Assembly: GCA_028534125.1 (NCBI GenBank)
Contig: CM052816.1
Coordinates: 25,422,001-25,486,000, forward strand
DNA: 64,000 bases
Reading direction: 5' to 3'
Origin: Lama glama
Lineage: Eukaryota
Below the pieces are notes generated by a model. That model worked only from the letters and a program-made list of their open reading frames with translations, was not told where the DNA came from and searched no databases. The first letter of the stretch is position 1. Every line of letters begins with the position of its first letter. Positions 2,601 to 62,904 of the stretch are shown here, one piece after another. A program made the position numbers and the translations under genes.

Positions 2601-3135
2601 GCTTTTTAAAATTGAGGCATAATTGACGTAAGCTTTATATTCATCTCAGGTGTACAATAATGATTCAGTATTTGTATATATTGCAAGGTGATCACAACTA
2701 GTCTGGTTAACATCCATCACTATGCGTAGTTATAAACTGTTTTTCTTGTGATGAAGACTTTTATGATTTAGTGTCTTAGCAACTTTCATGTATGCAAGAT
2801 GGTATTAATAACTATACTCACCATGCTATATACATTATTTTATCATTGGAAATTTGTACCTTTTGACCACCTTTATACATCTCACCAAGTCCCATCCTCC
2901 CACTCTGGCAACCACTAATCTGTTCTCTGCAACTATGACCTTGGTTTTTTGGTTTTGGGGTTTTTTTAGATTCTTTGTGTAAATGAAATTATACAGTATT
3001 TGTCCATATTTATCTGACTTATTTCATTTAGGATAATGCCCTCAAAGTCCATCTATGTTATCACAAATAGCAAGATTTCCTTTTCTTTTATGGCTGAACA
3101 AAATTCCATTGTTTGTGTTGTATGTATGTATGTAC

Positions 3136-3178
<43 letters not shown>

Positions 3179-3845
3179 GCATGTTCTTTATCCATTCGTC
3201 TATACCAGAACACTTAGGTTGTTTCCATGTCTCAACTATTGTGAATAATGTTGCAATGAATGTAGAAGTGTATGTATCTTTTAAAGTTAGTGGGTTTTTT
3301 GGGGGGGGGGGTAAATACCAAGAAGTAGAATTACTGGATGGTAGTTCTATTTTTAGGTTTTTGAAGAACCTCCATACTGTTTTCCACAGTGGCTGCACCA
3401 CTTTATATTCCCACTAACAATGCACGAGGGTTTTTTCCTTTTTTCACATCCTCACCAACGCTTATTATTTCTTGTCTTTTTGATAATAGCCATTCTAACA
3501 GGTATGAGGTTATATCTCATTGTGTTTTTGATTTGTGTTTCCCTGATGATTAGTGATATTGAGTGTCTTTTCATGTGCCTGTTGGCCATTTATATGTCTT
3601 CCACAGAAAAATGTCTATGAGATCTTCTGTGCATTTTTTAATTAGATTGTTTGGGTTTTTCCTATTGAGTTGTATGAGTTCTTTATATATTTTGGATATT
3701 AACTCCTTATTAGATACATGATTTAGAAATATTTTGTCCCATTCTGTAGGTTACATTTTCATTTTGTTGAGGATTTTCTTTGCTATTCAGAACCTTTTCA
3801 GTTTGATGTAGTCCCACTTTATTTTTGCTTTAGTTGCCTTTGCTT
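2601..3845 (-). mobile_element. 5'-truncated L1 (L1MA9/10-like), ORF2 C-terminus plus 3'UTR
   Basis: ORF 3042-3401(-) reads [20 protein letters not shown]...TWKQPKC...DEWIK, the L1 ORF2 C-terminus; T-rich tail at ~2603. Confidence 0.93.
3119..3176. repeat. (TATG)n/(TG)n microsatellite inside L1
   Basis: Direct reading. Confidence 0.97.
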
Positions 3846-14257: not shown

Positions 14258-15690
14258 TTGTTTTGCAGTATCCGGTCTTACATTTAGATCTTTAATCCAT
14301 TTTGAGTTTATTTTTGTATACGGTGTTAGGGAATGTTCTAATTTCAGTCTTTTACATATAGCTGTCTACTTTTCCCAGCACCACTTATTGAAGAGACTGT
14401 GTTTTTTCCATTGTATATTCTTCTTTGTTGTAGATTAATTGACTGTAAGTGCTTAGATTTATTTCTGGACTTTCTATCCTGTTACATTGATCTGTGTGTC
14501 TGTTTTTGTGCCAGTACCATACTGTTTTGATTACTAGCTTTGTAGTGTAGTCTAAAAACACAGAATATGATTCAGCCTTGTTCTTCTTTCTCAAGATTAT
14601 TTTGGCTATTTGGGGTCTTTCATGTTCCATATAAATTTTAAAAACTTTTGTTCCAGTTCTGTGAAAAATGCCTTTGGTAATTTGATAAGGGATTTCATTG
14701 AATCTGTATATTGCCTTGGGCAGTATGGCCATTTTAAGAATATTGAATCTTCCAATCCAAGAACATGGTTTATTTTTCCATCTGTTTGTGTTGTCTTCTA
14801 TTTCTTTCATCAGTGTCTTAGTTTTCGGAGTATAGGTCCTTTGCCTCCTTAGGTAGGTTTATTCCTAGGCATTTTATTCTTTTGATGTGATGGTAAGTGA
14901 GATTGTTCCCTTAATTTCTTTTTCCTCTATTTCACGGTTAGTATATAGAAATGCAGCTGATTTCTTTATATTAATTTTGTATCCTGCAACTTTACCAAAT
15001 TCATTGATGAACTTTACTAGTTTTTTGGTGGCCTCTTTAGGATTTTTTATGTATAGTATCACATCATCTGCGAACAGAGACAGTTTTACTTCTTCTTTTC
15101 CAATTTGGATTCCTTTTATTTCTTTTCCTTCTCTGACTGCTGTGGCTAGGCCTTCCAAAACTATGTTGAATAAAAGTGGTGAAAGTAAATATCCTTGTCT
15201 TTTTCCTGATCTTAGAGGAAATGCTTTCAGCTTTTCACCATTGAGAAAAATGTTGGCTGTGGCTTGTCTTATATGGCCTTTATTATGCTAAGGTATGTTC
15301 CCTCTATGCCCACTTTCTGGAGAGTTTTTATTATAAATGTTGAATTTTATCAAAATCTTTTTCTGTATCTATTGAGATGATGATTTGGCTTTTATTCTTC
15401 TGTTTGTTAATGTGATATATCACATTGATTGATTTGCAGATATTGAAATATCCTTGCATCCCTAGGATAAATCCCACTTGATCATGGTGTATGATCTTTT
15501 AAATTTATTGTTGGAGTCAATTTGCTAGTATTTTGTTGAGGATTTTTTGCATCTATATTCATAAGTGATATTGGCCTATAATTTTCTTTTTTTGTGATAT
15601 TTCTGTCTAGTTTTGGTATTAGGATAATTATGGCCTCATTGAGTTCGGAAGTGTTCCTTTGTCTGCAATTGTTTGGAATAGTTCAGAAGG
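14258..15690 (-). mobile_element. L1 ORF2 (RT domain) segment, inverted part of a 5'-inverted L1
   Basis: ORFs 14874-15158(-) [16 protein letters not shown] and 14385-14810(-) PCSWIGRFNILKMAILPKAIYRFN...KTVWYWHKNR; disrupted by stops and frameshifts. Confidence 0.96.
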
Positions 15691-16132: not shown

Positions 16133-16994
16133 TTTTTTTAAGTCTTTTTGTTAATAGAGGTTGGAAAAATGCTGTTACCAGACAGATCACAGGGTTCTCA
16201 GATACCAAAGACAGAAGCGCTTTTTCCTATCAAAGGTAAACAAAAACAAACTCTTGAGCTCTGAAGTCAGAAGCAGATGTCCAGTATCCTTGGCCTATGG
16301 CCTACAAGCACTGTGGAGTACATGTATGTGGGCACTGTCCCATGAGCATTCCCTTGGGCTTGTAACTGCAGTACCATAGTGGGAGAGAACCAAAGGCTGA
16401 GAGCAGAATCCATCGCTTGTTCTTTGTATTTAATAATATAGAGATATATACAGTAAATGGTAAAGAGTTTATATTATAGGTTATATGTTCAGTTATTCTC
16501 CAAATATTATTTCATCATCTTTCCAAGATATTTCCAAAGTACAGAATAGTCATGTTGTTTGTATATGCAGATGCTCAGACCAGGTAGACTTTTAAGTGCC
16601 CAGAGAGGGTGCAGTTAGTTGAGCAGCTTGTTCATTCAGATTTCTGTCTGGATATGCCCTGTGCTGTATTGGATGCACATTATTTTGATTGACAGACCCT
16701 TACATGTAAATTCATGTACCTGGAAATTATGCCCTAAACCAAAGAAGAAAAGTTGATTTCATGTTACATGGCAACTTTAGTTCATCAATGTAGCTATCCA
16801 GAGGGTTATGTTGAAAAGAGTCAGATACTGTGGGCTCAGTGGAAAAGAAAGTGACATGGTCCATGTCTGCCATGGATAAAAAAGGGGAAAATGACAAGCA
16901 TTTGTGCCTTTATTTGCCATCCCTGTTTTAGTTTCCAGCAGCAGTTCCAAGTTTGGGTGTATACTAAGGGAGTATTTCAGAGTTTGTATCTTAT

Positions 16995-18595
16995 ATAATT
17001 TGCTTCATCAGTATTTCGTAGTTTTCAGTATACAAGACTTTCTTTTACACTCCTTAGTTAATTTTATTCAAAAGTGTTTTATTCTTTTTGGTGCTATTAT
17101 AAGTGGGATTTTTTTTCTGCATTTTCTTTTCGGATACTTCTTTGTTAATGTATAGAAAGAACTGATTTTTATGTCTTCATTTTGTATCCTGCAACTTTAC
17201 TGAATTTCTTCATTAATTCAAGCAGTTTTCTTGATGGGGTCTTTAGGGTTTTCTATATATAAGATCATATATTCTGTAAACAGAGACAATTTTGCTTTTC
17301 CTTTCTGATTTGGATGGCTTTTATTTCTTTTTTATTACCTAATTACTCTGGCTAGAACTTCAAGTAATACTTTGAATGGAAGTGATGAGAGTGGGCATCC
17401 TTAACTTATTCCTGATCTTAGAGAAGAAGCTGTTTTTCACCACTGAGTATAATGTTAGCTATAACTTTTAATATTAGGCCTTTATTATGCTGAGATACTC
17501 TCTTTCTGTTTTTAGTTTGTTGAGAGTTTTTGTCATAAAAGGGTGTTGAATTTTGTCTGTTTTTCTACATCTGTTGAGATGAGCATGTGATTTTATCCTC
17601 TGTTCGGTTAATGTAGTATATCACATTAATTGGTTTTCATATGTTGAACCATCCTTGTGTCCCTGAGATAAAATCCCATGAGTTCATGTTGTATTATCCT
17701 TTTAATGTGCTGTGGGATTCAGGCTGCAAATATTTTGTTGAGGACTTTTGCATCTATGTTCAGCAGTGATATTGACCTACAGGGTTATTTTTCCTTTGTG
17801 GTACCTGTCTATCTGATATAAAGGTAAGACTGGCCTCAGAGTTTGATATTGTTCCTTCTTCCTCAGTTTTTTGGGAAGAATTTGAGAAAGATTGGCATTA
17901 ATTCTTCTTCAAATGTTTGGTGGAATTTACCAGCAAAGCCATCTGGTCCTGGGCTTTTCTTTATTGGTTTTCGATTACTGCTTCAATCTTCATATTAGCT
18001 ATAGATCTGTTCAGATTTTCTACTTCTCCATGATTTAGTGTTGGTAGGTAATATGTTTCTAAGAATTTGTTGATTTCTTCTTTGTTATCCAGGTTGTTGG
18101 CATATGATTGTTCATATAGTCTCTTATGATCCTTTTCACTTCTGTGGCATCATTTGTAATCTCTTCTTTCATTTCTTATTTTATTGATTTGAGTGTTCTT
18201 TCTTTCTTTCTTAGTCTAGCCAAGGGTTTGTCAATTTTGCTTATCTTTAAAAAGAAACAATTCTTAATTTTGTTGTTTTTTTTCTATTTTTTATTGCATT
18301 TATTTCTGCTCTAATCATTATTTCCTTTTTTCTGCTAACTTTGGGCTTAGCTTGTTCTACTTCTTCTAGCTCCTTGAGGGGAAAGTTAGACTACTAATCT
18401 GACATCTTTCTTTATTTTTAATGTAGGCATTTATCACTATGAACTTCCCTCTTACTACTGCTTTTGCTGGTTGCCATATGTTTTGGTATATTATGTTTTT
18501 ATTTTCATTTTTCTCAAGGTAATTTTCTAATTTCCCTTATGATTTCTCCTTTGACTTTATGGTTGTTCAAGAGCATGGCCTCTAATTTCCACCTC
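16995..18595 (-). mobile_element. Older L1 ORF2 internal fragment
   Basis: Collinear with the ORF2 RT segment at 14810-15690 (e.g. ttttgtatcctgcaactttac, ttttgttgaggacttttgcatctat) and extends further 5'; no tail visible. Confidence 0.9.
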
Positions 18596-25153: not shown

Positions 25154-25253
25154 ATAAACATTTTCATTTCTTTTAAAATTATTTTTTATAATAAACATTT
25201 TCATTTCTTTTAAAATTATTTTTTATAATAAACATGTATAATAAACATGTATA
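25154..25253. repeat. Perfect 2 x 37-bp plus 2 x 13-bp tandem duplications
   Basis: ataaacattttcatttcttttaaaattattttttata at 25154-25190 and 25191-25227; ataaacatgtata at 25228-25240 and 25241-25253. Confidence 0.97.
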
Positions 25254-28099: not shown

Positions 28100-28234
28100 G
28101 TGGGAGGGTATACCTCAGTGGTAGAGCGCATGCTTAGCATGCACGAGGTCCTGGATTCAATCCCCAATACCTCTATTTAAAAAATAATAAAACTTTTTTT
28201 TTTCAAGATGAAGTAAATAGGAAAAAAATGCATT
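28100..28234 (+). mobile_element. tRNA-Ala(AGC)-derived SINE (camelid Vic-1-like), copy 1
   Basis: Head gagggtatacctcagtggtagagcgcatgcttagcatgcacgaggtcctggattcaatcccc; A-rich tail; TSD aaaaattgagtctt (28086-28099) / aaaaattgaatctt (28235-28248). Confidence 0.92.
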
Positions 28235-43900: not shown

Positions 43901-45339
43901 CCATTCAAGCAAAAGGTCGATTTTATAAATAAAAAATACTGCATAAAAGTCATGTTATGTTTATGTTCTTTCCTGGTAGAAGAGACTAAATATATTGGTT
44001 CATTGTCCATGGAAAGAAAGTGTGTAGCAAGGAGTTCATCATCAGGCAAACAGCAATCAAGAAAAGCAAGAATATTTTTGAGTGAGGGATACATCTGTGG
44101 TTGAGGATAAGCTAGCCAGTTCAGCAAACACCTTCCTTTTATTAAGAAAAACAGCTTTGAACTTAAAGATAAAATCCTTGTACTATTTGGTAAGCTTCAG
44201 TCATTAAAGGAGCTAGTTAACTAATGAGCCCCATATGATTCCAGTTACATTAGAAAATAAGATTAGAACTATTAATTTCCTATCAGAGGCATATAAGTAA
44301 TAAAAGTTACTTGGAAGGGTCGGTATCCCATCTACTGAGGCTAGTGTTCCTCAAGCTGAGGAACAGAATTTTCAAGTAGATGAGATTAGAATCATAGAGG
44401 TACAGAACTAAGCCAAAAGTGAAAACTTATGTTTAGTGATGATGAACTTAGGCAGTTATGTTGTCGCATATCTGGCCAAATAAGAGCAACTTTAGATCTA
44501 AGAAAATGGGAATGAGGTTCCAAAAGGTTGGTGACAATGATTCCACAATGAGACTAAGTAAAAGTGGAAGGGGAGTGGCCAGCAGAAAAGGGAAGAGAGA
44601 GACAGAAAAAGGTATGAGGACACACATGCAATTTGGGCATATAAGGAAATTTAGAACTAGATGTTTAGAGCTTTTATAATAATTGTCATAAGACATTCTG
44701 CTTCCTTTTGTTAAGATCTCCTTTGATCTTTTCAAAGAACTTGGAGAATAGTTGCTAAATCACATTTGCCCAACTCTTCTGGAGTGGGAGATTTGAGTTG
44801 CTTAAAACAATATGCCATGGGAAGCGTACACGGAAACTTACGTACACCAGGTACAAGGGTAGAGGCAATGATTTCATAGGAACCTGGGCCAGACCTGCCT
44901 GCTGAATTTGGAGGGTCTCCGGGGACATGGACGGCTGCGGTGCACTCAGGGGACATAAAAGCTGGTGGTGGACATTCTGGGAGTTAATCTACTTGAGCTT
45001 TCCTGGAGGCAGACATCTTGCTTGGATCTTTAGCGCCCAGACCTAGCCCCACCCAGCAGCCTGTAGGGAAGTCTCAGGCCAAACAACCTACAGGGTGGAA
45101 ACACAGCCACACCCATCATCAGACTTTCTAAGCCTCAAAGGCCTCTAGACACAATCCTACCCCCAGGGGTCCAGGACCAAGCTTCACCTAGCAGTGGGCA
45201 GGCACTGGCTCCTCCTGCCAGGAAACCTACATAAACCTCTAGTCCAGCCTCATCCACCAGGGGCAGATATTGGAAAAAAGAAAACAATAATCCCAAAGTG
45301 TGTGGAAGGAATTCACAATCACATAGAAAGATAGACAAT

Positions 45340-46227
45340 ATGAGGTGGCAAAAGAATATCTCCCAGGCCAAGGCACAAGATAAAATCCCAGAAGAAGAAA
45401 TAAGTGATGAGGAGATAGGCAACTTATCAGAAAGAATTTAAAGTAATTATGTCCAGGATGTTCAGAGAACTCAAGAGGAGTATAGATGCACAGAGCAAAG
45501 TTTTTAGCAAAGAGTTGGAAAATATAAAGAGTATCCAGAGTTGAAGAATAAAATCACTGAAATGAACAATACACTAGAAGGAAACAAGAAAAGACTAAAT
45601 GAGGCAGAAGAATGGATCAGTGAACTAGAAAACAGATTAGTGGAAATCACTACTTCAGAACAGGAAAATGAAAAAAGAATGAAAAGAAATGAGAATAGTT
45701 TAGGAGAACTCTGGGACAACATGAAGCGCTCTAATATTCGCATTATAGGGGTCCCAGAAAGAGGGAAGAGAGAGACAAAGGACCTGAGAAAATTTTTGGA
45801 GAGAGAATCACTGAAAACTTCCCCAACTTGGGAAAGGGAACAGTCACCCAAGTCCAGGAAGCACAGAGAGTACCACACAGGATCAACCCAAAGAGGAACA
45901 CACCAAGGCACACAGTCATCAGATTGACAACAATTAAGGATAAGGAGAAAAGATTAAAATTAGCAAGAGAAAAGCAACAAATAACATACAAGGGAACTCC
46001 CATAAGGTTATCAGCTGATTTTTCAGCAGGAATTCTACAGGCCAGAAGGAGTGGCATGATATATTTAAAGCGATGAAAGGGGGAAACTTACAACCAAGAA
46101 TACTTTATCCAGCAAGGCTCTCATTCAGGCTTGATGGAGAAATCAAATTTTCACAGATAAACAAAAACTAAAAGATTTCAGCACCACCAACGCAGCTTTA
46201 CAACAAACGTTAAAGGACGTTCTCTAG
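45340..46227 (+). pseudogene. L1 ORF1p (RNA-binding/chaperone), frameshifted
   Basis: ATG 45340 (MRWQKNISQAKAQDKIPEEE); coiled-coil ...EAEEWISELENR; KRSNIRIIGVPE; TPRHTVIRL; YKGTPIRLSADFS; stop TAG at 46225-46227. Confidence 0.92.
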
Positions 46228-46289
46228 TCATCAAACCATAAGGAAAAAGAACAAAAAGAAGACAGAAAAAAAAAAAAAAAGGCCTACAA

Positions 46290-46572
46290 AAGATTGCTTT
46301 GGCTGTTCAGGGTCTTTTGTGGTTCCTTGTAAATAATTCTGGAATTGTTTGTTTTAGTTCTGTGAGGAATGTCGTGAGTATTTTGACAGGAGTTGCATTG
46401 GATCTGTGGATTGCTTTGGGTAGTGTGACCATTTTGATTGTGTTGATTCTTCTAATCCAAGAGCACAAGAAATCTTTCCATTTCTTTGTGTCACTTCAGT
46501 TTTCAGAGTATAGGTAACCTCCTTGGTTAAGTTTATTTCTAGGTATTTTATTGTTTTTGATATAATGGAAAT
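46290..46572 (-). mobile_element. Antisense L1 ORF2 mid-fragment inside the chimera
   Basis: Homologous to 14595-14890 (agattgctttggctgttcagggtcttttgtggttcc...tttatttctaggtattttatt). Confidence 0.88.
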
Positions 46573-46619
46573 GTCTCTGCCAGTTATAAAATTCTGGTTT
46601 TTGAAGTGAAAAAGTGAAG

Positions 46620-46836
46620 GGCCACAAATGGCAAAATATCCTTTTTTGTGGGTGGGTTGTATTCCATTTTATATATATATATATTAAATGTGTGTATATA
46701 TATATTCATATATATGTATATGTATATATACATAATGCATCTTCATTCTCTGTTCAACTATTGATGTGCACTTAGGATGCTTCCGTATCTTGGCAATTAT
46801 GTTGCTGTTAATAGCAGGGTGTATGTATCTTTTTGA
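46620..46836 (-). mobile_element. Antisense L1 ORF2 C-terminal fragment with (TA)n inside the chimera
   Basis: Homologous to 62475-62645 (caaatggcaaaat...cacttaggatgcttccgtatcttggcaatt...tgtatctttttgaa). Confidence 0.82.
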
Positions 46837-46959
46837 AAATTCTTATTTGGTGGTTGGCTTTATTCCTTTGGTAACTATGTAAGTTCAAAACAGTAAAGCT
46901 CTAAACATTCTTAGAAACAATGAACAGTACATATATGTAAATTTAAAAATATATGTGCA

Positions 46960-47510
46960 GTGAAAAAAAAGATCTATCAAGACATGGAAGAAACTTAAAA
47001 GACTTATTAGTAAGTGAAAGAAGCCAGTCTGAAAAGGCTACAAACTGTACGATTCCAACCAAATGACATTCTGCGAAAGACACAGCTACAGAAACAATAA
47101 AAAGATCATGGTTTCTACGGGCTTGGGGAGAAGGAGGGAGGGAGGAATGAATAGATGGAGCACAGGGGATTTTTAGGGCAATGAAATTACTCTGTATGAT
47201 ACTATAGTGGTGGCTACATGTCATTACGCATTTGTCAAAACCCATAGAATGTACAACATCAAGAGTGAACCCTAATGTAAACTATGGACTGGTTGATAAT
47301 AATGTGCCCGTGTTGGTTCAGTTGTACCAAATATGCCACACTGTTGAGGTATGTTGAGGGTAGGGGAGTATATATGTGTGGGTGGGGAGGTCTATACGCA
47401 AACTCTGTATTTTCTGCTCAATTCTGTTGTGAACCTGAAACTGCTCTAAAAGAATAAAGTCTATTAAAAAACAAAACAAAACAAAAACAAAACAAGAAAC
47501 AAACAAACAA
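46960..47510 (+). mobile_element. L1MC1-like 3' end with A/(AAAC)n tail
   Basis: taagtgaaagaagccagtctgaaaaggctac...catttgtcaaaacccatagaatgtacaaca..aagagtgaaccctaatgtaaactatggact...aataaagtctatt. Confidence 0.88.
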
Positions 47511-47529
47511 AAAACAGTATGCCATGATG

Positions 47530-52700: not shown

Positions 52701-53190
52701 GTGGTCTAGACAATAAGGGTCAAAGTGTCAAGAGGGCATGTGTAACATGGCACATGGATAAGAAAGATTGTGCTTTGGCTTCGGAGGATGAGAGGCTACA
52801 GGGAGCTTCAGCATACTAAGGGGTAAGAGAGAAAGTTTTATAAAAGTTTCTGTGGACTATGTACCCCTACCACCACCAATAAAAAAAAAATCTGGGAGAA
52901 ATGGTGAAAGGGATATTTTTATTTTTTGAAGTTTTTTTTTAAAAAATTGTATATCAATCTACAGATGCTTCAGTTTAGATCAAGTATGTCATAAGTATTA
53001 GAGGAGAAACTAAGAGTCTTTTAAGCCATAACCCTTGTAAGGTCATCATTTGGGTTCAAGAATTCAGGAACGAGGGGAATGGTATAGGTCAGTGGTAGAG
53101 CACGTGCTTAGCATGCACAGGGTCCTGGATTCAATCCCCAGAACCTCTGTTAAAATAAAGAAATAAGCCAATTACCTTCCTCCCACTATG

Positions 53191-60387: not shown

Positions 60388-60520
60388 AGCAGGGAGGGTA
60401 TAGCTCAGTGGTAGAGTGTGTGCTTAGCATGCACGAGGTCCTGGGTTCAATCCCCAGTATCTCCATTTAAATAAACAAACAAACCTAATTACCTCACCGC
60501 TCAAAAAAATTTCCTTTAAA
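60388..60520 (+). mobile_element. tRNA-Ala(AGC)-derived SINE copy 3
   Basis: 72-nt tRNA-like head at 60394-60465; tail aaacctaattacct; perfect TSD aagagaggccctac (60374-60387 / 60521-60534). Confidence 0.95.
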
Positions 60521-61260: not shown

Positions 61261-62050
61261 CATATTGAGCATTTACTTATGTTTAGCATTGATTAGTTTT
61301 TCCTAATATGTGTATAAGCATTTGCAGTATTATCTCATCAAATATATCACTTGACTCTCATAGCCCTCTGGTAGGAGAAAATTACTCAGGAACTTTTTAT
61401 TTTTTATTCTACTACAGGTTGAAAAATCCTGTGTTTATTACTTTCAGATTTCGATCAGTTGGGTTCAGCGCATGACTACAAATTGTCCCAATTATTCAGG
61501 GTTTTAATCCATTTTACAAAGGCTTGCCTAATGCATTGTGGTTAACAACTAAATGAATCAAACTAATAGTCTGTCCAAATATGAATCTCTGAAGAATGTC
61601 TGTGCCTCATTTGAATATGAAGCTTTTGTTAATCATTGTTCACTCATTCGGTTCTCAAATGTGCCTCCTCCTTAAAATTATCAAGAAGATATTTATAACA
61701 TTTCCTTGATCTTGACCTGCTAAACATTTGCCAGAATTTCTGTGTGGTGAGGTTGTAGGAATCCATTTTGTTTTTAATCCCAAATTATTCTAGAGTAGAG
61801 ATGATTGCATTGACCCAGAGCATAACTGGTAGTTTTCTCTATTTGGTGTCTAATTGAAAGCCAGTTCCTTGCTCTGCAGCTGTAGCCAACTTGTTTTTGA
61901 CTTTTCTTTCATGCAATTACCTACTGCTTAAGGAGAACTCCTTTTAATATGGCTATTACAAAGGAATACTCAAGCATATACCCTTATGGAATAGTAAACT
62001 GTAAATTGACATTTCCCATTTCTCAACTGAGAGTATCATTAAATCAAAAG

Positions 62051-62904
62051 TTTTTTTTAATTGAAGTATAGTCAGTTTACAATGTTGTGTCAGTTTCTGG
62101 TGAACATCATAATGTTTCAGTCATACATATGCATACATATATTCATTTTCATAGTTTTTCATTATAGGTTACCACAAGATAGTGACTATAGTCACTATAG
62201 TGCTATACAGTATAAACTTATTGTTTATCTAATTTATATATAGTACTTAGTATCTGAAAATCTCAAACTCTCACTTTATCCCTTCCCACCCTCTTTCCCT
62301 CCTGGTAACTGTAAGTTTGTGTTCTACATCTGGGAATCTCTTTCTGTTTTGTAAATAAGTTCATTTATGTCTTTTTTTTTTTTAGATTCCACATATGAGT
62401 GACATAATATGGTATTTTTCTTTCTTTTTGTGGCTTACGTCACTTAGAATGATGATCTCCAGGTCCATCCATGTTGCTGCAAATGGCATTGTTTCATTCT
62501 TTTTATGGCTGAGTAGTATTCCATTGTATAAATATACCACAGCTTCTTTATATAGTCATCTGTCGATGGACATTTAGGTTGTTTCCATGTCTTGGCTATT
62601 GTAAATAGTGCTGCTATGAACACTGGAATGCATGTATCTTTTTGAATTAGAGTTCCTTCCAGATATATGCCCAGGAGTGGGATTGCTGGATCATATGATA
62701 AGTCTATTTTTACTTTTTTGAGGAATCTCCATACTGTTCTCCACAATGCGCCAAGCTACATTCTCAACAATAGTATAGGAGGGTTCCCTTTTCTCCACAC
62801 CCTTTCCAGCATTTATCGTTTGTGGACTTTTGAATGATGGCCATTCTGACTGGTGTGAGGTGATACCTCATGGTAGTTTTGATTTGCATTTCTCTGATAA
62901 TTAG
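62051..62904 (-). mobile_element. Young 5'-truncated L1 (ORF2 C-terminus, 3'UTR, poly(A))
   Basis: ORF 62444-62746(-) WRTVWRFLKKVKIDLSYDPAIPLLGIY...TWKQPKCPSTD; TSD cattaaatcaaaag (62037-62050) / cattaaatcagaag (62905-62918). Confidence 0.96.

What the first reader, a model, noticed from the sequence alone, without database searches (positions are those of the whole stretch)
44804..47526. Candidate non-autonomous 'half-L1' chimera mobilised as one 2.7-kb unit
Seen: what look like four unrelated repeats lie inside one 16-bp TSD (aaaacaatatgccatg / aaaacagtatgccatg, 15/16) at a TT|AAAA site. The order is L1 5'UTR, full-length (decayed) ORF1 at 45340-46227, an inter-ORF spacer that breaks off just before ORF2, two antisense ORF2 scraps, unique sequence, an L1MC1-like 3' end with AATAAA, and an A-rich tail. 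Established: TT/AAAA cleavage, TSD and A-tail are hallmarks of L1 ORF2p TPRT, and ORF1-only HAL1 elements have arisen in several mammalian lineages. Inference: a source L1 lost ORF2, read through flanking DNA to a fossil L1MC1 poly(A) signal and was trans-mobilised. It may represent a lineage-specific family, and a repeat masker would probably split it into separate hits. I cannot tell whether it is already catalogued.
Basis: partly seen in the sequence, partly recalled or inferred. Interest (0 to 1): 0.8.

Follow-up and report, generated by a model that had tools for sequence, protein, structure and literature searches.

The report
Patchwork half-L1 copy with A-to-G scar
This is a dead 2.7-kb patchwork of LINE-1 pieces (front gene kept, two scraps of the enzyme gene facing backwards, another LINE-1's tail) inside one insertion scar; it is likely one copy of a parasitic 'half-L1' family that borrowed its copying enzyme, a known way of life, and one backward scrap carries one-strand A-to-G changes that likely record RNA editing written back into DNA.

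Summary
One 16-bp target-site duplication (15/16, unique in 64 kb) at TT|AAAA encloses a 5'-truncated L1 5'UTR, a decayed ORF1, a cut spacer, two antisense ORF2 scraps, an L1M-type 3' end and an A-tail.

An unnamed NCBI protein (P0001) reads through the same three joints and the same 24-nt deletion at about 7% divergence; 0 of 149 other L1 fragments do. It could still be an orthologue from another camelid. Copy number was not measured.

The scan noted this architecture before at several other places in the same genome (unchecked notes whose lengths fit a shared 3' end). It is not pig HAL1_SSc, which has a different 3' half.

Added here: scrap 1 carries A-to-G changes on the element's RNA strand at 10 of 38 detectable sites versus 2 of 59 on the other strand (p=0.001). 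All are shared with P0001, 5'-U is favoured, and ORF1 shows no such excess. This likely records ADAR editing fixed in the founder.

Verdict: likely an independently arisen HAL1-like family (0.8); possibly already in Repbase/Dfam, which I could not search.

The parts
44802..44807 (+). L1 endonuclease-type site TT|AAAA
   Evidence: sequence; motif as in PMC4859970 passage
44804..44819 (+). left target-site duplication
44820..45339 (+). L1 5'UTR, 3' part only (likely 5'-truncated by about 0.4 kb)
   Evidence: by-eye match to pig L1A1/HAL1_SSc 5'UTR from about nt 404
45340..46227 (+). full-length but decayed L1 ORF1 (five frame changes)
   Evidence: Pfam hits, human ORF1p match, frames; best homologues 76-79% identical, named ones mostly pig, peccary, porpoise
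46228..46291 (+). short inter-ORF spacer, cut about 25-30 nt before where ORF2 would start
   Evidence: by-eye comparison with pig L1A1/L1A3 spacers; same cut in P0001
46292..46575 (-). antisense ORF2 scrap 1 (about human ORF2p 765-862, residues 788-862 matched), with a 24-nt and a 5-nt deletion and an A-to-G cluster on the + strand, mainly 46296-46463
46576..46620 (.). 45-nt linker of unknown origin, shared with P0001
46621..46840 (-). antisense scrap 2: end of ORF2, with a (TA)n expansion at 46670-46734
   Evidence: by-eye match to pig L1A1 ORF2 end; its left end is shared with P0001
46841..46955 (.). unassigned AT-rich sequence
   Evidence: only a weak (E 0.007, low-complexity) self match
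46956..47465 (+). 3' end of an older L1 (L1MC1-like by recall, untested) with AATAAA at 47453
   Evidence: sequence; subfamily name recalled
47466..47510 (+). A-rich tail decayed to an AAAAC microsatellite
47511..47526 (+). right target-site duplication

Best explanation
This is a dead, likely 5'-truncated copy of a composite L1-derived RNA that sits inside one target-site duplication and was likely inserted by a borrowed L1 ORF2p, likely as one member of a multi-copy ORF1-only ('half-L1') family of the camel lineage. Shown: the composite anatomy, the insertion hallmarks, a second diverged sequence with identical joints, and a strand-specific A-to-G excess shared by both. Inferred: (1) A source L1 kept its promoter and ORF1, but its ORF2 was replaced by backward ORF2 scraps (2-nt microhomology at the first joint) and it used the poly(A) signal of an older L1 3' end. 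(2) Its RNA made ORF1p in cis and was reverse-transcribed by ORF2p from intact L1s. (3) The antisense scrap paired with sense ORF2 RNA, either in the founder's longer transcript or in trans with helper L1 RNA; ADAR turned A to I, and reverse transcription fixed G in the source before the copies spread (about 0.55 for this step alone). (4) This copy lost its promoter start on insertion and then decayed neutrally.
For: TSD, endonuclease site and tail; no convincing nested TSDs. P0001 runs through scrap 2 end, linker, scrap 1 with the same 24-nt deletion, and spacer; 23 of 145 aligned codons differ, plus 6 gap runs in the alignment, about 5 indel events. None of 149 other ORF2 fragments has the linker, the deletion or the first joint. 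Two CGA-type codons read TGA here and Gln in P0001, as expected from independent CpG decay. A-to-G: 10 of 38 detectable sites versus 2 of 59 on the other strand, Fisher p=0.0012; 8 of 20 differences at conserved columns versus 12.7% background, p=0.002; all 10 shared with P0001; 5' neighbour T in 6 of 10 versus 4 of 28, p=0.01; no excess in ORF1, 4 of 28 versus 11%. Precedent: repeated independent origins of HAL1 (PMC5753468), about 7500 rat copies (PMC2241872), pig HAL1_SSc built as front half plus foreign tail. Leads only: earlier notes of 1368, 1389, 2059 and 1320 letters would start inside ORF1 if they share this 3' end, and the noted A-to-G patch would fall at 46356-46456, inside scrap 1.
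Against: Only one sister sequence was recovered, protein-only and without flanks. Its roughly 7% divergence is also compatible with an orthologue across the 16.3-My camelid split (PMC6726744). It covers the joints only from scrap 2 to the spacer, not the joints to the tail. Copy number was not measured. Junction searches found nothing else, though these collections hold little mammalian DNA and the metagenome pattern demanded a base P0001 likely lacks. Sequence look-ups in the scan's own index were empty. No intact ORF1 of this family was seen. For editing: the raw pairwise count against the window's own L1 paralogue is 17 A>G versus 11 G>A, p=0.34; 5'-G depletion is not significant (1 of 10 versus 11 of 28, p=0.12); the ADAR 5'-U preference is recalled; ADAR2 did not edit plain L1 RNA in a cell assay (PMC8677026 passages).
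Confidence: 0.8

Rival explanations
1. One-off: a rearranged L1 locus was retrocopied once or a few times (a transduction-like event), and P0001 is this same locus in another camelid.
For: Only one sister found. About 7% divergence fits an orthologue across tribes. 20 of 24 listed runs, from four organism labels, hold 0.52-0.58 of the stretch's words, so close relatives carry at least part of the stretch.
Against: A random 1027-nt contig is far more likely to hit one of many copies than this one locus. About 5 indel events in 440 nt is high for orthologues. Several unchecked notes describe the same architecture elsewhere in this genome, with fitting lengths.
Confidence: 0.12
2. The patchwork was made during this single insertion, by inversions and template switches of ORF2p on a full-length L1 RNA and other RNAs.
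For: 5' inversions and template switching are known L1 outcomes (PMC4859970 passages); 2-nt microhomology at the first joint.
Against: It needs four or more switches plus two deletions in one event. The scraps are permuted relative to ORF2 order. Scrap 2 and the tail appear, by eye and recall, to end ORF2 with different subfamily sequences. The rival holds only if P0001 is an orthologue.
Confidence: 0.05
3. The TSD is coincidental or belongs to the old 3' end; separate repeats piled up at this site.
For: The parts look to be of different ages, and AT-rich TSDs can arise by chance.
Against: The 16-mer is unique in 64 kb and no such pair arose in about 4000 random pairs. Survival of 15/16 identity at 30-40% pairwise divergence has probability 0.03-0.003. 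No inner TSDs or poly(T) ends on the scraps.
Confidence: 0.03
4. For the A-to-G cluster only (not exclusive with the family reading): it comes from strand-asymmetric DNA mutation at the transcribed source locus, or from chance, not from ADAR.
For: Small numbers (10 sites); polarity taken from a mixed-mammal protein majority; pairwise nucleotide count not significant. T>C in ATA context is a known DNA-level hotspot (recalled) and mimics the 5'-U preference.
Against: ORF1 in the same element and strand shows no excess. None of the 149 background fragments exceeds 5 such changes, on a count by residue pair that gave 9 here. The excess sits in the one segment able to form a duplex with L1 RNA.
Confidence: 0.4

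Closest known systems
HAL1 ('half-L1') non-autonomous L1 derivatives (Smit 1999; Bao and Jurka 2010, neither seen; known through passages of PMC5753468, PMC5786205, PMC4859970, PMC13756887)
   Same: L1 5'UTR and ORF1, no sense ORF2, poly(A) tail, TSD at an L1 endonuclease site; repeated independent origins are on record.
   Different: The 3' half is a patchwork of antisense ORF2 scraps and another L1's 3' end; A-to-G cluster; intact ORF1 and copy number not shown.
Pig HAL1_SSc (L1A6 in PMC6501411 supplement, 3016 nt; sequence read)
   Same: Homologous 5'UTR and ORF1 lineage; same plan of front half plus captured DNA plus an L1-like 3' end; similar length (3.0 kb versus 2.7 kb plus about 0.4 kb truncated here).
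   Different: It keeps the start of the long spacer, not its end. Its 3' half is unrelated by eye: no antisense ORF2, different 3' end. Five short joint or tail motifs and the name L1MC are absent from both pig supplement files (line breaks could hide a motif). An independent origin.
Rat RNHAL1 (PMC2241872 passage)
   Same: ORF1-only derivative of the then-active L1, thousands of copies, thought to be carried by ORF1p-coated RNA.
   Different: Described as a plain ORF2 deletion, 98% identical to active L1 and still spreading; this copy is old, dead and composite.
L1 3' transductions and 5'-inverted insertions (PMC4859970 passages)
   Same: Use of a downstream poly(A) signal; inverted L1 pieces inside one TSD.
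   Different: Those are one-off products; here ORF2 is gone, the inverted pieces are internal and permuted, and the joints recur in a second sequence.
APOBEC3-edited retroelements in genomes (PMC2873906 passages)
   Same: Clusters of one mismatch type left in integrated retroelement copies.
   Different: Those are G-to-A from DNA editing. Here it is A-to-G on the RNA strand, which that paper reports over-represented in cDNA traces and not in its high-quality DNA traces.

Membership tests
HAL1-type element | L1-derived 5'UTR and full-length ORF1 | tested here: met
   (UTR truncated in this copy)
HAL1-type element | No sense ORF2 (endonuclease/reverse transcriptase) | tested here: met
   within the element the ORF2-like matches lie on the minus strand only (46292-46630, probes cover only part of ORF2); no RT domain in the + strand frames scanned
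HAL1-type element | Inserted by L1 TPRT (TSD, endonuclease site, A-tail) | tested here: met
HAL1-type element | Multiple dispersed copies with the same joints and different TSDs | tested here: inconclusive
   one second sequence without flanks; unchecked notes; no genome or read-depth count
HAL1-type element | ORF1 intact and under purifying selection in the source lineage | not testable with these tools
   needs many copies; this copy has five frame changes; best homologue 79%
Pig HAL1_SSc | Same 3' half and joints as the Repbase consensus | tested here: not met
   by-eye comparison; motif search
Catalogued camelid Repbase/Dfam families | Match to a named consensus | not testable with these tools
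   no repeat library on hand; only the name L1-2_Vpa was seen in print
L1MC1 (tail only) | Identity to the L1MC1 3'-end consensus | not testable with these tools
   label recalled; literature and supplement searches gave no consensus
ADAR hyper-edited RNA | Clustered A-to-G on the RNA strand | tested here: met
   10 of 38 versus 2 of 59; control ORF1 4 of 28
ADAR hyper-edited RNA | Neighbour preference (5' U enriched, 5' G depleted; recalled) | tested here: inconclusive
   5'-T p=0.01, 5'-G p=0.12
ADAR hyper-edited RNA | Double-stranded substrate | tested here: inconclusive
   no long inverted repeat or complementary arm inside the element; a duplex would need sense ORF2 RNA in trans or in a lost founder transcript

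The most novel reading that the evidence does not exclude
A camelid half-L1 family of hundreds of copies whose RNA carries an antisense-ORF2 segment that pairs with the helper L1 RNA. Germline ADAR editing of that duplex was written back into DNA in the founder and then amplified genome-wide, giving a family-wide, datable fossil of RNA editing and possibly a parasite that also acts as a natural antisense against its helper.
Probability: 0.3. Interest if true: 0.7.

Novelty: new variant of a known kind. Interest (0 to 1): 0.42.

Why it matters
A repeat masker would likely split each copy into four or five hits of different ages, hiding a lineage-specific family and inflating the count of 'ancient' L1M pieces in camelid genomes. 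It would add one more independent origin of ORF1-only parasites of L1. The more surprising part is the A-to-G scar. Genomic traces of DNA editing by APOBEC3 are on record, whereas I found no paper on ADAR edits fixed in a retrotransposon family (searches; open-access library only). If it holds, it shows that edited germline RNA can be retrotransposed and inherited, and it is directly testable with any camelid assembly. The half-L1 way of life itself is known, and this scan has noted the element several times already.

Tried and rejected
No genome is held for this window, so no genome-wide count was possible.

Junction DNA patterns: 0 hits in viral contigs; 2 in metagenomes and 1 in prokaryote genomes, all chance with no flanking similarity. 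Protein-guided locus scans found no relative. BLAST of the 3' half against plasmids and phages: no match. The plus-strand junction peptide found 0 of 3 candidates. Sequence and place look-ups in earlier findings were empty.

Dating by ORF1 failed: no close camelid ORF1p was returned (best 79%), and 28 of 140 conserved columns differ, mixing lineage change with decay. Scrap 2 peptides gave no real PDB or Pfam hit. RNA folding of the 3' half showed no long duplex (no shuffle control at that length).

Dropped or corrected: a W>R change was counted as T>C by residue pair; the actual codon is a transversion, so the count fell from 9 of 21 to 8 of 20 (which also leaves out the column next to the deletion).

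Rejected: an ORF1-only insertion ending at the spacer A-run (no TSD); independent nested insertion of either scrap; a single twin-primed L1MC insertion for scrap 2 plus tail (they appear to be different subfamilies, by eye and recall); identity with pig HAL1_SSc. The four run rows with word shares under 0.05 were not used. Bao and Jurka 2010 was not seen. The Camelus TE paper (PMC8605555) has no readable supplement, so its library may already hold this family.
Full report
Observation. The 16-mers at 44804-44819 and 47511-47526 match at 15 of 16. They are the only two matches within two mismatches in the 64-kb window, and no such pair arose in about 4000 random pairs of 56-nt boxes 2.7 kb apart (4000 draws, those at the real site skipped). 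The left copy follows TT, giving TT|AAAA, the L1 endonuclease motif (PMC4859970 passages). AATAAA at 47453 precedes a 45-nt tail that is 80% A. No inner piece has a convincing duplication of its own; the best are 7-10 nt and AT-rich.

Anatomy, front half. ORF1 runs from 45340 to 46227. Its pieces hit the three Pfam L1 ORF1 families and human ORF1p, with five frame changes. The best of 913 longer homologues are 76-79% identical; named ones among the 120 listed are pig, peccary, porpoise and one bat. Three tRNA-Ala-like SINE copies in the window resemble the camelid Vic-1 SINE (recalled), and earlier notes call this genome camel-family; I did not test the species. Read by eye against pig consensus sequences (PMC6501411, supplement file 1, parts 1-2 of 56), the 5'UTR starts at about nt 404 of pig L1A1, so this copy is likely 5'-truncated. 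The spacer joins the ORF1 stop directly to what is the last part of the long pig spacer, and is cut about 25-30 nt before the ORF2 start.

Anatomy, back half. Scrap 1 (46292-46575, minus) is ORF2 (human ORF2p 795-852, E 1e-14). Scrap 2 (46621-46840, minus) is the end of ORF2 by DNA similarity to other L1 pieces in the window (64-77%) and by eye, with no protein hit. The two scraps are permuted relative to ORF2 order. The tail's L1MC1 label is recalled, not tested.

A second sequence with the same joints. A search with the peptide across the first joint returned 1 of 1 candidates: P0001, 149 aa, unnamed, NCBI, on a 1027-nt contig. A frameshift-aware alignment lays it on 46667-46227: scrap 2 end, linker, the frame-shifted start of scrap 1, the same 24-nt deletion, scrap 1, the first joint and the spacer. 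23 of 145 aligned codons differ, with about five indel events, or about 7% at DNA level. Among the 149 other best hits of a search of 1.84 billion proteins (6840 passed E 0.001), none has the linker, the deletion or the joint; one shares only the frame-shifted motif. This shows the composite exists in a second, diverged form. It does not show that the second form is a paralogue: camelid tribes split about 16.3 My ago (PMC6726744 passage), and 7% is compatible with an orthologue. A paralogue is favoured by the low chance that a random 1-kb contig hits this one locus, by the indel load, and by two CpG codons that decayed in opposite directions. P0001 does not reach the joints to the tail. All DNA-level searches for more copies were empty or chance, and no genome or read-depth count was obtained.

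Earlier notes (leads, unchecked). At least four notes on this genome describe a front half plus two flipped ORF2 pieces or an antisense mosaic, and two more a patchwork tail. If their elements share this 3' end, lengths of 1368, 1389, 2059 and 1320 letters would start at 46159, 46138, 45468 and 46207, all inside ORF1, as for 5'-truncated copies. The 101-letter A-to-G patch noted 218 letters into the 1389-letter one would fall at 46356-46456, inside scrap 1. Five to seven such loci, counting this one, in 231 noted windows (about 15 Mb) would mean several hundred to about a thousand copies in a 2-Gb genome. This is a rough inference from unchecked notes. Their sequences could not be retrieved.

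The A-to-G cluster. Using the 149 ORF2 fragments to give each change a direction, 8 of 20 differences at conserved columns, and 10 of 25 overall, are T-to-C on the ORF2 strand, that is A-to-G on the element's RNA strand. The background is 12.7% (209 of 1642; p=0.002 and 0.0006). All 10 are shared with P0001, so they predate the split of the two. Counted per detectable site, it is 10 of 38 versus 2 of 59 on the other strand (p=0.0012). The 5' neighbour is T in 6 of 10 versus 4 of 28 unchanged sites (p=0.01) and G in 1 of 10 versus 11 of 28 (p=0.12). ORF1, scored over its last 140 conserved columns, shows no A-to-G excess (4 of 28 versus 11%), and an old L1 pair in the window is symmetric (35 versus 34). 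Against: the raw pairwise count with the window's own paralogue is 17 versus 11 (p=0.34), rising to 15 versus 4 only in a stretch chosen after the fact. The element has no internal partner for a duplex. ADAR2 bound but did not edit plain L1 RNA in cells (PMC8677026 passages). I saw the cluster by eye after reading note e1-8044904, which prompted the test.

Mechanism. The most likely account (0.8) is an ORF1-only parasite of L1. A source locus kept promoter and ORF1, had ORF2 replaced by backward scraps, and ended at an older L1's poly(A) signal. ORF1p made in cis and ORF2p borrowed in trans copied it by target-primed reverse transcription. This copy was truncated on insertion and decayed. Scrap 1 looks young at capture (9 of 67 codons differ in both copies apart from the cluster, 3 of them also seen in ordinary L1s), so an inversion or a nearby antisense young L1 fits it better than read-through into purely fossil DNA. 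The A-to-G cluster most likely (0.55) came from ADAR acting on the antisense scrap paired with sense ORF2 RNA, fixed by reverse transcription in the founder.

Known and new. It works like HAL1, which arose several times in mammals (PMC5753468, PMC5786205, PMC13756887, PMC2241872 passages). Three of five HAL1 features were met, one was inconclusive and one untestable. It is not pig HAL1_SSc. Ten literature searches (listings only unless cited above) found no camelid half-L1 and no family-wide ADAR scar. However, Bao and Jurka 2010 was not seen, Repbase and Dfam could not be searched, and the Camelus TE survey (PMC8605555 passages) has no readable supplement. Verdict: a real feature, a new variant of a known kind, interest 0.42.

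Noticed in passing
window 28102-28193, 53081-53177, 60392-60494: Three copies (84-87% alike) of a tRNA-Ala-like SINE; ARAGORN and Rfam call the third a tRNA. Resembles the camelid Vic-1 SINE (recalled), so likely not a real tRNA gene.
   Followed up: partly
window 46225-46228: ORF1's stop TAG is joined directly to the last ~65 nt of the long pig-type spacer; the skipped part in pig L1A3 begins after TAG and ends in AG, so the shortcut could be a microhomology deletion or a splice. Pig L1A1/L1A2 have a different short spacer.
   Followed up: no
window 14347-15682 and 16982-17874: Old minus-strand L1 ORF2 remnants, one with a Pfam RVT_1 hit (14877-15287); the two are 72% alike over 877 nt. Used as controls.
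   Followed up: partly
window 2961-3777 and 62046-62904: Old L1 3' pieces, 70-72% alike, with ORF2-like hits on both strands.
   Followed up: no
window 25154-25235: Perfect tandem duplication of a 37-nt AT-rich unit (2.2 copies, 100% match), so recent.
   Followed up: no
window 46282, 46655, 46648 and 46329: Four differences from P0001 look like further A-to-G changes on the + strand private to this copy (direction by eye). Too few to test, but they would fit editing in later replication rounds.
   Followed up: partly
whole window: No host protein-coding domain was found in 34 of the 41 longest open frames scanned; the window looks intergenic or intronic, GC 27-48%.
   Followed up: partly
earlier notes, and e1-9167683: The scan also reports a different camelid ORF1-only type of about 3.06-3.1 kb, with ORF1 joined in sense to the end of ORF2. 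Camelids may hold two or more half-L1 families.
   Followed up: no
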